From a virus (Duplodnaviria > Heunggongvirae > Uroviricota > Caudoviricetes), in IMG/VR virus record IMGVR_UViG_2718218100_000003: a DNA stretch of 64,000 nucleotides; one strand, written 5' to 3'. Of this stretch, positions 60,001 through 64,000 are shown one piece after another. How positions within the stretch are numbered: the first letter of the stretch is position 1; each line of letters starts with the position of its first letter. Made by a program: the position numbers.

Positions 60001-63000
60001 ATGCAGATATAAAAATGGAAAAGTGGCGTGGTGAAAACACCAGGCCGTAGCAGAAGGCTATTCTGGAGAGTTAATTTTTCATTTCGGGCGTCGGATAAAC
60101 AGCCAGATAAACGTAACCACAACTGCTGAGGGTATCGGCTTTGCAGGTCAGCCCTTTTGCATACAGCGTGACGGTATGCTGATGGCGGGGATTCAGTTCA
60201 CCGCTGGTGAGCATGAGTTCCAGTTGTTTCATCAGCAGCGGAAAGGCCTGGTCCGGGTGGTACGCATCTGCATCGCTGAACAGGCCTCTGATACCGGCGC
60301 GGTCGGCAAGGTAATGCAACCGGTTACCCTCCTGCACCAGACGTGCCCCGAAACAGGGCGTCACGGTGCAGGGCAGCCCCCACCAGGGGCGGTCGTGATT
60401 GTCGTCGGGAAGTGTTGTCCCGGGGAGTGTGTCTGACACGATAAAATCCTTACAGAAAATCGGCTAAGAATGGTCCGGTAGTGGCGATAATTCTGCTCAT
60501 CAGAATTCCCACTCAGTTCAGGGTGACGCTCATCAGCCGGACATACGGACCAAAACTGTCCTTACGGCGTTCAGCAAACACGGCCAGCACACCGGGAATA
60601 TCCTGCACTTCACGACCGGTATACGCTTCAGCACTGCCGTGCCAGCGGTATTTACCGGTACAGAACGGAAAAAGACGGGATGTCGGATGTTGTTGGTGAA
60701 TACGCATGGCTTCACCACGGGTGATAATTTTCATAATGGGATACCTCTGAAGACAGAAGATAAAAGTGAAAACAGGTGTGATGTGGTTGTGACGGGTTAA
60801 AGCAGACCATGTTCGGCAAAGGAGAAAACCTGGTTGCCACCGACTATCAGATGGTCCGGCACCCGGATATCCACCAGGCCCAGTGCCTGTACCAGACGTT
60901 CGGTGATAAGCCGGTCTGCCTTACTGGGTGTGACTTCACCGGACGGGTGATTGTGTGCCAGTACCACGGCAGCGGCATTGTGGTACAGGGCGCGTTTAAT
61001 CACTTCCCGGGGATGGACTTCCGTGCGGTTGATGGTGCCGGTGAAGAGGGTTTCACCGGCAATCAGCTGATTCTGGTTGTTCAGATACAGCACCCGGAAC
61101 TCTTCACGCTCCAGTCCCGCCATGTTCAGAATCAGCCATTCCCGTGCTGCACGGGTGGAGGTGAAGGCCACACCGGGTTCATGAAGATGGCGGTCCAGGG
61201 TTTTCAGGGCCCGTTGAATGAGGCTGCGCTCGCCGGGCGTCATTTCTCCGGGCAGAAAGGAAATCTGTTGCATTATTCCGGCCCCTTTCAGTCAATGATG
61301 CGCATAATGGCGCTGCCTTCCGGATGCTGCAGGGCGTAATCCCGCAACCGGTAATAATGGACCGTCATGGCATAATTCTCCGTACGACAGGCATGATGGC
61401 TGTACGTCATCAGACAGGCGGCAATACCGGCGGCTTCCGGGCTCATTTCAGCGCGGTTACCGTTCATGGCATTGAACAGTACCCATGTTTCGTCATCATC
61501 ATCATCCGGTTCGGGGGCCATAAATGCCCCGCCGTTGTTCAGGGTGTACAGATTCCAGATACCACCGCAGTAGTCTTCGCACAGACGGTCCATCCAGCCG
61601 AAGACACGGGGCTCCAGGGTGACCCACTGTGGAATGAGGCCAAAATGCTGCGGCCAGAAGCTGATGCGCTGTTCATCAGGGACGAGGCTGGCAACCAACT
61701 GAGGCGGATTATTCTCTGGTGTTGTAGCTGAATAAATTGTGGGGGTATTCTGAGAAACGGTTTTCATGAGATAACTCCTTAAATAACAAATAAATGTGTG
61801 TTTTTCGGGAACGAAAGCTGAATGATTCCCTCACTCAGGGAAACGGCATCAGCGCAGGCTCTCCAGCATCGTTTCTGCCATCACCCACAATGCGCGATTG
61901 AGCTTAATGTCGGTATCAATGCTGTGAATGGCCCGGGTATGGATACGTTTTCCTTTTGCACTGCGACCGGAAATCCCGCCTTTCAGCATATTCTCCTGGA
62001 TGGTCTGATATGCGCTCCACAGGTCCTTACCGTAATCCTCCCGGCGTCGCGGCGTCAGAATGTCGGCGGTGGTGACGGGCTGATGTTCGTCACCATAACG
62101 GTAAGTCAGTGCCGCCTGTGCCAGCGCCTGGCGTGCCGGTTGCGGCAGGACCAGCGACTGCATGGCATCACGCTTCTCCTCTATCCGGTCAAACACGCCC
62201 ACCACCTCGTAAGCCCCTTCGATAACTTTCTCCACTACATTTCCCCGGTGTGGAACACGCACTTCCCCCAGAGACTGGCCACAGACGCACCCGTTCTGGC
62301 AGACGAACCTGAAGTAACCCGGCAGCATCTGGTAGCTGGAGGTACCGTCATGAGAGTTGAGCAGAATAATTTCAGGGACATGTTCTCCGTTTATCTCTCC
62401 GGCCCGCCGCAGACGCAGCATGTGTTTTGTGTATCCCCGGCGGCCCGGGTCGCGCACACGGGTCTGGCAGGCGAAGAACGGCTGAAAGCCTTCCCGCTGC
62501 AGATTTTCCAGGACGGTAATGGTGGGAATGTACGCATACCGTTCACTGCGGGAGGTGTGCCGGTCTTCCCCAAAAATACTGGGTACATGGCGTATCAGTT
62601 CTTCATGTGTCAGCGGACGGTCACGGCGTATCTGGTTTGCAGCATAACCAAAACGACTGGCTAATCGCATACTTTGCTCCTTATCGGTGGTTAAGATTTA
62701 CTGGTGCAATAAATGAAAAAAGCCGCGTCTCCCGGAGAAGACGCGGCCTGACGGGTGAAATGAATAAGGTTTATTGTCTGAGAGGCCTTTCACTGGCGAG
62801 CCACGCATTAAGCGGCTTTCCGGTAACAATGGCTGGGGCTGTATTTACCTTTGATATTAATAATGTGCAGAGAAACGCATGGTTTACTCCTTAGATTTTA
62901 AGTTTGTCCTGGGCTACACCGACAGGTTTTCCGGATGTGTCGATGACTCCTACCGTCGGTACGCCATTTTTGATTTCGAAGAACGGTTTGTTGCTACCTG

Positions 63001-64000
63001 AGCACAGTTGATTGTCCCCGTATTCAATCATTTGTGCTTTCCCGGTTTTCAGGTTAACTACCGAGACAGTGTAGTCGTAGCACCAGGCACCACCACGTTC
63101 AAGCACGAAAACATAGCTGTTATCTTTATAGTTGAACTGATTCTTTGTCTGGCAATTCATACCGTCAATTTCGGTACAGGAAAACGCTTCTGTAGTATTA
63201 ACGTATTTGATGTTATTTGGCAGTTTTACTTGTTTCGCAGTAGCGAAGACAGAGAACAGAATAGTTACAGCAACGAGTAAAGTTTTGATAAAAGTTTTCA
63301 TGATAGACTCCTTAAATTAGTTAACCGCAGCTACGTAGTTTTTCACCAGATACGCGAATTCATGCACGCCAATTTCACCGAACCAAACCAGGTAGGCCGG
63401 GTCATCTAAACCAAAGTAACGGTAGCCAACAACTTCATGGGTTTTTGGGTTATAGAGTGTTACGATAAAGTCCCAGCCGCAGGTATTGGCTTTGCAACCG
63501 TCGCCCTGGAACCAGACTGTACCGTTAATGTTTACTGGCGTGATACCTCCACCAGGGCCATCCATATAGCCGCCTTTACCGAACATGCCGCTCAGTCCGA
63601 CCGGTTTTAATGCTTTGTCGATAGCGGCTTTGTAGGTAGCGTCACCTTCGTACAACTCGTACGTTGATGGACACGCTCCAGGTTGTTCAGCCCAGGCTTC
63701 CGGGTTACAACTAAGAGCTTGTTTTACGGTAGCCGCTTCTGCGTTAAAGTTAAAGCCCGTGAACAGAACCGCCAGAAATAACATAAGGGTATGTAAACGT
63801 TTCATTGTAAATATTCTTCCGTTGTAAATGGCGCTGGAAAATTTCTCATCAGTGAAACCTTCCGGAAGTTTCCCCCCCTTGTATGATGTATATCGCCAGT
63901 ATTTTATTTCATCCCGGCTGTAATTTTTATATTCCCCGGCACGTGCAATAACGCGGACCAGAGATATAAGGCTCATTAATAACTTTACAGGTAATTTCAT

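What the first reader, a model, noticed from the sequence alone, without database searches (positions are those of the whole stretch)
62891..64000. Two adjacent AT-rich genes for small secreted proteins at the window edge
A 136-aa signal-peptide protein with four Cys and a ~160-aa signal-peptide protein with a CKxxxC motif loosely reminiscent of Ivy lysozyme inhibitors lie head to tail, with a terminator behind them. Such pairs can be periplasmic inhibitor or immunity proteins. The right-hand gene is cut by the window edge, so context is incomplete.
Basis: inference. Interest (0 to 1): 0.4.

Follow-up and report, generated by a model that had tools for sequence, protein, structure and literature searches.

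The report
Hidden Ivy-like periplasmic gene pair
Two small secreted-protein genes in an E. coli O157:H7 genomic island are real and co-transcribed: one is an unannotated, highly diverged relative of the Ivy lysozyme inhibitor, the other belongs to a family from jumbo phages, and a jumbo-phage-like scaffold carries the same pair.

Summary
Both genes lie on the minus strand of an E. coli O157:H7 CP4-44-like island remnant. geneB is 63317..63805 (162 aa, Sec-type signal peptide, CKANTC loop). geneA is 62891..63301 (136 aa, signal peptide, 4 Cys). They are 15 nt apart, with an AAGGAG before geneA and a strong terminator behind it.

geneA has no fold match. It belongs to a family of three tandem secreted 4-Cys paralogs in Seoulvirus jumbo phages. 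A Seoulvirus-like scaffold carries the same B-A pair. Pectobacterium islands encode an Ivy-like domain fused to a possibly related 4-Cys domain.

PGAP's 227-aa model is a chimera: its first 65 codons are a remnant of an upstream secreted-protein gene.

About 43% of complete E. coli genomes carry each gene, always annotated as hypothetical. I infer a periplasmic muramidase-inhibitor module, probably against phage-type enzymes; this is untested.

The parts
63317..63805 (-). geneB: 162-aa precursor of a periplasmic Ivy-superfamily protein. This is the conserved coding unit; the functional start is most likely the ATG at 63805.
63734..63805 (-). geneB signal peptide, residues 1-24 (MKRLHTLMLFLAVLFTGFNFNAEA). 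The predicted cleavage is after AEA.
   Evidence: Sequence features: n-region with K and R, a hydrophobic core with mean KD 2.53, and A-x-A. It forms a low-confidence helix in the AF2 model. Not tested with SignalP.
63479..63496 (-). Disulfide loop CKANTC (residues 104-109), the counterpart of Ivy's inhibitory CKPHDC loop.
   Evidence: It aligns to CKPHDC in BLASTP and in HMM alignments. The loop is C[EKQ]xHxC in 24 of 31 relatives, with Asn in place of His here.
63302..63316 (-). 15-nt spacer between geneB and geneA, with the Shine-Dalgarno AAGGAG at 63308..63313. This indicates co-transcription.
   Evidence: Read directly from the sequence.
62891..63301 (-). geneA: 136-aa precursor of a secreted all-beta protein with 4 Cys. 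It belongs to a family native to Seoulvirus jumbo phages.
   Evidence: ORF. PHROG 8968, E 3e-46. tblastn hits in 40 phage records; the four whose annotation was retrieved are Seoulvirus. hhalign to the phage 136-aa group 98.5%, to the 163-aa group 95.3% and to the 127-aa group 88.7%. dN/dS 0.09-0.24. No PDB fold match.
63806..64000 (-). 5' remnant (65 codons) of a third gene, for a 180-aa secreted protein, fused in frame to geneB. It forms the N-terminal 'extension' of PGAP's 227-aa CDS and probably now serves as 5' leader or promoter region.
   Evidence: 48% identity (30/63, E 2e-17) to the N-terminus of the 180-aa protein upstream of the Ivy-like gene in L004. Substitutions are not biased to the third codon position, and the ATG is TAC in another strain.
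62720..62749 (-). Intrinsic terminator after geneA, lying before the DUF932 gene of the island backbone.
   Evidence: 13-bp stem with 8 G-C pairs plus a T-run. -24.5 kcal/mol, z = -5.3, and 0 of 200 shuffles fold as well.

Best explanation
geneB and geneA form a two-gene operon of mobile cargo in a CP4-44-like island.

geneB encodes a Sec-exported, two-disulfide protein with the Ivy fold. I propose that it works as Ivy does: it binds a lysozyme-fold peptidoglycan glycosidase and plugs the active-site cleft with the protruding disulfide loop, here CKANTC.

Three observations make the likely target a muralytic enzyme delivered by phages or competitors, rather than vertebrate c-type lysozyme. E. 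coli already has a core ivy gene. The loop His is not conserved in this clade. The same gene pair sits in a jumbo-phage-like scaffold. The role would resemble that of T4 Spackle: superinfection exclusion or protection from lysis from without.

geneA encodes a co-expressed periplasmic protein of a phage-derived 4-Cys family. It would act beside or together with the Ivy-like protein.

What is shown: the gene structure, purifying selection, the Ivy fold and homology, the phage and island distribution, and the chimeric annotation. What is inferred: export, disulfide formation, inhibitor activity, the target, and any cooperation between A and B.
For: Fold and homology:
- An exhaustive HMM search with the geneB profile finds 57 proteins at E <= 1e-3.
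- 25 of the 31 sequences in the combined alignment (geneB, three close homologs and 27 remote ones) hit Pfam Ivy.
- P0106 scores E 3e-15 against the geneB profile and carries PF08816 on record.
- The combined profile hits the Ivy PDB chains 1gpq and 1xs0 at 4.8e-13.
- The loops align with each other.

Gene reality and operon structure:
- Signal peptides, the Shine-Dalgarno sequence and the terminator are present.
- dN/dS is well below 1 for both genes.

Distribution and context:
- Core ivy is present in 5424 of 5426 genomes.
- geneB is accessory, found in 2332 of 5426 genomes.
- The B-A pair lies in a scaffold colinear with Seoulvirus phage Lh1B.
- The geneA family forms three tandem paralogs in these jumbo phages.
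- An Ivy-like domain is fused to a 4-Cys domain in defence-rich Pectobacterium-type islands that also carry DarT and Macro.

Literature:
- The CKPHDC loop is essential for Ivy inhibition (PMC4262234).
- The periplasmic T4 protein Spackle inhibits the tail lysozyme gp5 (PMC7650644).
Against: - No biochemical data exist for this protein or its family.
- The His of CKPHDC is Asn in this allele, so activity could be lost or redirected.
- geneB itself has no hit in Pfam Ivy, only E 0.19 in NCBIfam Ivy, and none in PADLOC.
- geneB has no match in 50,697 GenBank phage records or in BFVD. Its phage link rests on one metagenomic scaffold lineage.
- geneA is missing next to geneB in the L004-L007 island type.
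- Some strains carry a nonsense allele of geneB.
- E. coli Ivy is only a weak inhibitor of lytic transglycosylases in vitro (PMC10139938).
- The AF2 model has moderate confidence (pLDDT 72), and I could not inspect its coordinates.
Confidence: 0.5

Rival explanations
1. geneB is a second classical Ivy. It protects the cell against vertebrate c-type lysozyme in the gut, a virulence or colonisation cargo function. geneA would be unrelated cargo.
For: It has the Ivy fold and an aligned six-residue disulfide loop. Some E. coli alleles keep the His, as CKAHAC. It is carried by many host-associated E. coli, including O157:H7.
Against: Core ivy is already present in 5424 of 5426 genomes. The loop lacks the Pro, His and Asp of CKPHDC in this allele and in the phage-borne allele. 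A lytic jumbo phage gains little from blocking vertebrate lysozyme.
Confidence: 0.15
2. geneB restrains endogenous lytic transglycosylases, as proposed for Ivyp1 and Ivyp2 acting on MltB. Alternatively it restrains a muramidase belonging to the mobile element itself.
For: P. aeruginosa Ivy proteins inhibit MltB in vitro (cited in PMC10746161 and PMC10139938). The location is periplasmic.
Against: [quoted passage not shown] No muramidase gene lies next to the pair in any context examined.
Confidence: 0.1
3. The Ivy scaffold has been repurposed. The protein no longer inhibits a glycosidase and instead binds another periplasmic partner, or acts as a chaperone. K-12 Ivy is also annotated as a periplasmic chaperone. 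geneA might be its partner.
For: The His is replaced by Asn. There is an extra N-terminal disulfide and helix that E. coli Ivy lacks. Divergence is large enough to escape Pfam. The K-12 annotation reads 'periplasmic chaperone'. Fusions to other domains exist, namely a 4-Cys domain and a caspase-like domain.
Against: The loop length, both Cys and the following Gly are invariant across the geneB family, and the two loop Cys are kept in at least 90% of the wider alignment, which argues that the loop is still the functional element. Asn can still form hydrogen bonds with catalytic carboxylates (inference).
Confidence: 0.2
4. The pair is decaying passenger DNA in a degraded island and has no current function.
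For: The island is a remnant: cbtA is frameshifted, and the patatin and TonB-receptor genes are truncated. The upstream 180-aa gene is truncated. Nonsense alleles of geneB exist.
Against: dN/dS is 0.09-0.33 over deep divergence, with dS up to about 2. Intact copies are present in roughly 1,900-2,300 complete genomes. The Shine-Dalgarno sequence and terminator are intact.
Confidence: 0.05

Closest known systems
Ivy (inhibitor of vertebrate lysozyme; E. coli YkfE, P. aeruginosa Ivyp1 and Ivyp2; Pfam PF08816; PDB 1GPQ, 1XS0, 1UUZ, 4PS6)
   Different: Identity to Ivy is only 17-22%, with no direct Pfam hit. The loop is CKANTC rather than CKPHDC, with no His. There is an additional N-terminal Cys pair (C33, C45) and helices. 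The gene is accessory and island-borne rather than core. It is co-transcribed with a phage-family gene. Its activity is untested.
Uncharacterised Ivy-family branch with a C[EQ]xHNC loop and an N-terminal C...CPY motif (for example P0102, P0105, P0106; some members hit PF08816)
   Same: These are the nearest relatives outside E. coli: 20-32% identity, E down to 3e-21. They share both Cys pairs and the overall length. Members P0098 and L016 sit in CP4-57-like islands.
   Different: Most keep the His (24 of 31). Many are chromosomal singletons with no geneA-like neighbour.
T4 Spackle (gp61.3)
   Same: It is a small, phage-encoded, signal-peptide protein that acts in the periplasm as an inhibitor of a muralytic enzyme, the tail lysozyme gp5 (PMC7650644). 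It is the functional analogy for a phage- or island-borne periplasmic inhibitor.
   Different: The fold is unrelated, and the mechanism is allosteric rather than insertion into the active site (PMC7650644). No sequence or structural similarity was found.
YfjS and YfjT of the K-12 CP4-57 prophage
   Same: They are small exported proteins occupying the equivalent cargo slot of a sister island. YfjT-family genes lie beside the B-A pair in the jumbo-phage scaffold L008.
   Different: There is no sequence similarity to geneA or geneB.

Membership tests
Ivy family (PF08816; NCBIfam PRK09993) | Scores above the family HMM threshold | tested here: not met
   There is no Pfam hit at E <= 1. NCBIfam Ivy gives E 0.19 and 11.6 bits against a cut-off of 180, although it matches the correct region.
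Ivy family (PF08816; NCBIfam PRK09993) | Homology detectable through profiles or intermediate sequences | tested here: met
   The geneB profile finds remote homologs. 25 of the 31 sequences in the combined alignment hit PF08816. The combined profile hits Ivy PDB chains at 4.8e-13 to 1.9e-9.
Ivy family (PF08816; NCBIfam PRK09993) | Ivy fold | tested here: met
Ivy family (PF08816; NCBIfam PRK09993) | Strictly conserved CKPHDC disulfide loop with the His that is essential for inhibition (PMC4262234) | tested here: not met
   The loop length, both Cys, the Lys and the following Gly are kept, but the sequence is CKANTC: Pro to Ala, His to Asn, Asp to Thr. Other E. coli alleles have CKAHAC, CKSNAC or CKSDAC.
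Ivy family (PF08816; NCBIfam PRK09993) | Periplasmic location through a cleavable signal peptide | tested here: inconclusive
   The n-, h- and c-regions with AEA|A are typical. No signal-peptide predictor or experiment was available.
Ivy family (PF08816; NCBIfam PRK09993) | Inhibits c-type lysozyme or a lytic transglycosylase | not testable with these tools
   This needs a biochemical assay.
Seoulvirus 4-Cys secreted-protein family (PHROG 8968 and paralogs), for geneA | Sequence-profile similarity over the mature domain, with the four Cys in register | tested here: met
   PHROG 8968 at E 3e-46. tblastn E 1e-9 to 4e-6 against 40 phage records. hhalign 98.5% to the phage 136-aa group. With signal peptides removed, 95.3% to the 163-aa group and 88.7% to the 127-aa group.
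C-terminal 4-Cys domain of the Ivy-fusion proteins (P0098, L016; standalone in Providencia, Proteus and Morganella), for geneA | Detectable homology between geneA and the fused domain | tested here: inconclusive
   The direct comparison fails (0.3-0.4%). The only link is indirect, through the phage 127-aa group: 55-68%, E 5e-5 to 1.2e-4, with four Cys in register. The column-shuffle test gives 11 of 400.
Known anti-phage defence systems (PADLOC) | Match to a defence-system protein model | tested here: not met
   There is no hit at E <= 0.1 for geneA, geneB, the fusion P0098, or three further related or neighbouring proteins.

The most novel reading that the evidence does not exclude
The Ivy-like protein and the 4-Cys protein form a mobile periplasmic anti-muramidase module. 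The two are separate genes in E. coli islands and in a jumbo phage, and are possibly fused in Pectobacterium. The module is exchanged between jumbo phages and CP4-type defence islands. It blocks the peptidoglycan-penetrating enzymes of incoming phages or of contact-dependent competitors. That would make it an envelope-level defence or superinfection-exclusion system not present in current defence catalogues.
Probability: 0.2. Interest if true: 0.7.

Novelty: new variant of a known kind. Interest (0 to 1): 0.48.

Why it matters
Ivy is regarded as a narrowly distributed core gene with a strictly conserved CKPHDC loop, and its physiological target is still debated. This finding shows a second, cryptic Ivy-superfamily gene in about 43% of complete E. 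coli genomes, including O157:H7. PGAP, Pfam and NCBIfam all miss it.

The gene has a variable inhibitory loop (N, H or D at the key position). It is carried on mobile islands and on a jumbo-phage lineage, and in other enterobacteria it is fused to another secreted domain. This offers a natural series of loop variants for testing what Ivy-fold proteins really target. It also raises the testable idea that some of them are periplasmic anti-phage or anti-competitor inhibitors.

There is a practical correction as well. The RefSeq 227-aa protein model WP_000775497.1 appears to be a chimera of a gene remnant and the real 162-aa gene.

Tried and rejected
1. Direct family assignment failed. geneB has no Pfam, PHROG or PADLOC hit; geneA has only weak chance-level Pfam hits plus PHROG 8968 (unknown function). 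The NCBIfam hits are not significant, and neither protein gives a meaningful PDB sequence match. The geneB-family profile alone reaches Ivy PDB chains only at E about 1. A beta-mannanase hit at E 0.018 in that search looks like chance.

2. I tested whether the pair equals K-12 YfjS and YfjT. There is no similarity.

3. By eye, geneA looked like the C-terminal domain of the Ivy-fusion proteins. BLASTP found nothing. Direct hhalign gave 0.3-0.4%. After adding phage homologs, only an indirect link through the phage 127-aa group remains, at 55-68%. A control showed that signal peptides alone give E of about 0.005. I keep this as a lead, not a finding.

5. I asked whether the 227-aa protein annotated by PGAP is real, and rejected it in favour of the 162-aa form.

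6. I expected the 'internal stop' pseudogene call in strain 12690 to lie in the extension. It lies in the mature domain, so it says nothing about the start codon.

7. The BFVD fold search and the tblastn search of GenBank phages with geneB found nothing. afdb50 was unavailable.

8. The genome-contig scan found only one locus, in Pectobacterium.

9. Rfam found no RNA family in the region. No sigma-70-like promoter was found upstream of geneB on the minus strand.

10. The 180-aa upstream protein shows no relation to the 4-Cys families and no phage match.

11. The Abergel 2007 and Clarke 2010 papers are not held in the library. Statements about them come from papers that cite them.
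Full report
**Where the window is.** Bases 62671..64000 are 100% identical to E. coli O157:H7 chromosomes. In strain PV15-279 the region is a remnant of a CP4-44-like island. Read along the minus strand, the order is:
- a truncated TonB-dependent receptor gene;
- a truncated hypothetical gene, which corresponds to the 3' end of the patatin-like gene of intact islands;
- two 'hypothetical proteins', WP_000775497.1 and WP_000846711.1;
- DUF932, antirestriction, YeeS (JAB/RadC), YeeT (DUF987), CbeA, a frameshifted cbtA and yeeW.

**The observation.** Both genes are on the minus strand.
- geneA is 62891..63301, 136 aa. It starts MKTFIKTLLVAVTILFSVFATA|KQ and has Cys at 42, 50, 74 and 100.
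- geneB is 63317..63805, 162 aa. It starts MKRLHTLMLFLAVLFTGFNFNAEA|AT. It has Cys at 33 and 45, and the loop C104-K-A-N-T-C109.
- The 15-nt spacer holds AAGGAG seven bases before the geneA ATG.
- A 13-bp G+C-rich hairpin with a T-run follows at 62749..62720: -24.5 kcal/mol, z = -5.3.
- GC content is 41% for geneA and 49% for geneB, against 51% for the window and 54-57% for the island backbone genes. 'AT-rich' therefore holds mainly for geneA.
- Between alleles, dN/dS is 0.13-0.33 for geneB and 0.09-0.24 for geneA, while dS reaches 1-2. Both are genuine genes under selection.

**The start of geneB and the window edge.** PGAP annotates a 227-aa CDS, 63317..64000, whose ATG is the last codon of the window. 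Five observations show that the first 65 codons do not belong to this gene.
- Many homologs are 160-161 aa and start at MKRL.
- DNA homology with the alleles in L004, L006 and L008 starts only 7-11 nt upstream of the MKRL ATG.
- The 65 codons are 48% identical (30/63, E 2e-17) to the N-terminus of a 180-aa signal-peptide protein. That protein is encoded just upstream of the Ivy-like gene in other islands. The 'extension' is therefore the 5' remnant of a third secreted-protein gene, joined in frame by a deletion.
- Among alleles that share the extension, substitutions show no third-position bias ([5,2,1], [2,1,1] and [5,3,2]). In the core they do ([12,7,24] and similar).
- The upstream ATG is TAC in strain GW-AmxH19.

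The gene is therefore not cut by the window edge. Only its promoter context is missing. No sigma-70-like promoter and no Rfam element was detected.

**What geneB is.** Direct searches fail. Pfam finds nothing. NCBIfam Ivy gives only E 0.19. PHROGs, PADLOC and a PDB sequence search find nothing. Three independent lines then converge on Ivy.
- Profiles. An exhaustive HMM search with the family profile finds 57 proteins at E <= 1e-3. I aligned geneB and three close homologs with 27 full-length remote homologs (20-32% identity). Of these 31 sequences, 25 hit Pfam PF08816 Ivy. The profile of this alignment hits the Ivy PDB chains at 4.8e-13 (1gpq, 1xs0) and about 2e-9 (1uuz, 4ps6).
- The loop. BLASTP and the HMM alignments place CKANTC-G exactly on Ivy's CKPHDC-G, between the same two strands.

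geneB thus belongs to the Ivy superfamily. More precisely, it sits in a branch that has an extra N-terminal Cys pair and a C[EKQ]xHxC loop.

In canonical Ivy the CKPHDC loop is essential for inhibition and strictly conserved (PMC4262234). Here the His is Asn. Other E. coli alleles read CKAHAC, CKSNAC or CKSDAC, and the phage-borne allele reads CKANAC. Core ivy is present in 5424 of 5426 complete E. coli genomes. geneB is present in 2332 of them, always annotated as 'hypothetical protein'. It is therefore an accessory, cryptic paralog.

The informative results are these.
- PHROG 8968 matches at E 3e-46.
- tblastn finds matches of 31-37% identity in 40 phage records; the four whose annotation was retrieved are of genus Seoulvirus (SPN3US-like), and 12 matches cover at least 80% of geneA.
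- In phages Lh1B and pEa_SNUABM_29 the 136-aa homolog lies between a 163/165-aa gene and a 127/128-aa gene, ahead of an SMC-like gene. STsAS has the same layout, but no CDS is annotated in the 127-aa slot.
- With signal peptides removed, the geneA profile matches the 163-aa group at 95.3% (E 2e-8) and the 127-aa group at 88.7% (E 2.6e-6). Those two groups match each other at 94.6%. Controls against the Ivy-like family stay at or below 3.5%.

geneA is therefore one of three tandem paralogs of a secreted 4-Cys family native to these phages.

**The pair elsewhere.**
- The metagenomic scaffold L008 carries an Ivy-like gene (58% identity to geneB) followed 11 nt later by a geneA homolog.
- L008 is colinear with Seoulvirus Lh1B: 131/133 aa at 49%, 129/127 aa at 48%, 202/208 aa at 42%, and SMC at 53%. 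The Ivy-like gene sits in the slot of the phage 163-aa paralog. Two YfjT-family genes lie just upstream.
- In E. coli islands of the L004-L007 type the order is dynamin-like GTPase, YjcZ/RdcB-like, patatin, the 180-aa protein, the Ivy-like gene and DUF932. geneA is absent there. The pair is therefore frequent but not obligate.
- geneA is found in 2365 of 5426 genomes. Both genes plus their flanks are found in 1877 genomes at megablast level.
- In Pectobacterium brasiliense, and in a closely similar island in an assembly whose organism I did not determine, a 316-320-aa protein joins an Ivy-like domain (loop CEAHNC) to a C-terminal 4-Cys domain. It sits in a CP4-57-like island, between YfjR-like and YpjK-sized genes and RadC, CbeA, CbtA, DUF4942, DarT and Macro.
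- That C-terminal domain also occurs alone as a signal-peptide protein in Providencia, Proteus, Morganella, Salmonella and E. coli.

Whether the fused domain is homologous to geneA remains open.
- The direct comparison fails.
- The phage 127-aa group links to it at 55-68% (E 5e-5 to 1.2e-4), with all four Cys in register.
- The column-shuffle tests give 0 of 400 for the L008 129-aa protein against the C-domain, and 11 of 400 for geneA against the C-domain.

If the homology is real, the fusion is Rosetta-stone evidence that the Ivy-like and 4-Cys proteins work together.

**Mechanism.** The shown facts are the operon structure, purifying selection, Ivy-fold homology with a retained disulfide loop, the accessory and mobile distribution, and the presence of the pair in a jumbo-phage lineage.

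From these I infer three things.
- Both proteins are exported, and their Cys pairs are oxidised in the periplasm.
- geneB binds a lysozyme-fold peptidoglycan glycosidase by inserting its loop, as Ivy does (PMC4262234).
- The preferred target is a muralytic enzyme brought by phages or competitors rather than vertebrate lysozyme.

The reasons for that target preference are that core ivy already covers vertebrate lysozyme, that the key loop residue varies (N, H or D), and that a lytic phage carries the module. T4 Spackle is the precedent for a periplasmic inhibitor of a phage tail lysozyme (PMC7650644).

The alternatives are a second anti-host-lysozyme Ivy, control of endogenous lytic transglycosylases, a repurposed scaffold, or decaying cargo. 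Support for the lytic-transglycosylase idea is weak in E. coli (PMC10139938). Each rival is scored separately in the report.

**Novelty and verdict.** No paper in the library mentions these proteins. The protein fails two strict Ivy criteria, the HMM threshold and the CKPHDC motif. It meets the fold and remote-homology criteria. I file it as a new variant of a known kind, not as a bona fide Ivy ortholog.

Function remains untested. Interest is moderate: 0.48 overall, and higher if the anti-phage or anti-competitor reading or the fusion link proves true.

Noticed in passing
window 63806..64000 (minus); L004 5098-5640: RefSeq protein WP_000775497.1 (227 aa) appears to be a chimeric gene model. 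Its first 65 residues are the remnant of a separate 180-aa secreted-protein gene that a deletion fused in frame to the real 162-aa gene.
   Followed up: yes
L008 4598-7309 (metagenome scaffold SHAF22-1 scaffold_62): A Seoulvirus-like jumbo phage carries a run of six signal-peptide genes: YfjT, YfjT, a 131-aa gene, the Ivy-like gene, the geneA-like gene and a 129-aa gene. This links the K-12 CP4-57 gene yfjT and the O157 pair to a phage 'periplasmic cassette'.
   Followed up: partly
L008 559-4468: Four to five consecutive ORFs of 185-375 aa appear to be paralogs. Four share a C-terminal motif of the form GW..V...G.QLLF.A. They have no Pfam hits and their function is unknown.
   Followed up: no
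P0131 (439 aa, remote homolog): An Ivy-like N-terminal domain (loop CKAHDC) appears to be fused to a caspase-like Peptidase_C14 domain. One member of alignment A4 hits PF00656 at E 2e-41, and I attribute the hit to P0131 from its long C-terminal region. Another homolog, P0098, is fused to a 4-Cys domain. The Ivy-like domain therefore seems to be a module used in several architectures.
   Followed up: partly
L018 2806-3483 and L019 2308-2985 (E. coli strains 12690 and 2013C_3653): In strain 12690 the CKAHAC allele of geneB carries a nonsense codon inside the mature domain (MFG*DG). PGAP annotates the same 'internal stop' pseudogene in strain 2013C_3653, which I did not translate. The neighbouring DUF932 gene is also truncated there by a group II intron or reverse transcriptase insertion.
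   Followed up: partly
L004-L007 612-4965; L018 1-2670: Intact versions of the island carry paralogs of dynamin-like YjdA and of YjcZ/RdcB, plus a patatin-like phospholipase, upstream of the Ivy-like gene. This might be a defence or signalling cassette. In the O157 locus only a 3' fragment of the patatin-like gene is left, just outside the window.
   Followed up: no
L011 7232-8942; L016 7394-8041: The island that encodes the Ivy-4Cys fusion in locus L011 also carries a DarT and Macro (DarTG-like) toxin-antitoxin and defence pair, plus DUF4942, next to CbtA and CbeA. In the Pectobacterium brasiliense locus L016 I read only the DarT-sized ORF.
   Followed up: no
(P0008; hit H40): Some database entries for geneB homologs carry the name 'DNA polymerase III subunit gamma/tau'. 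This looks like an annotation error.
   Followed up: no
window 62891..63805 compared with L017, L018, L004 and L008: Synonymous divergence between E. coli alleles of both genes is very high (dS 0.2-1.0). The 195-nt upstream remnant differs by only 2-5%. This suggests old allelic lineages shuffled by recombination among sister islands.
   Followed up: partly
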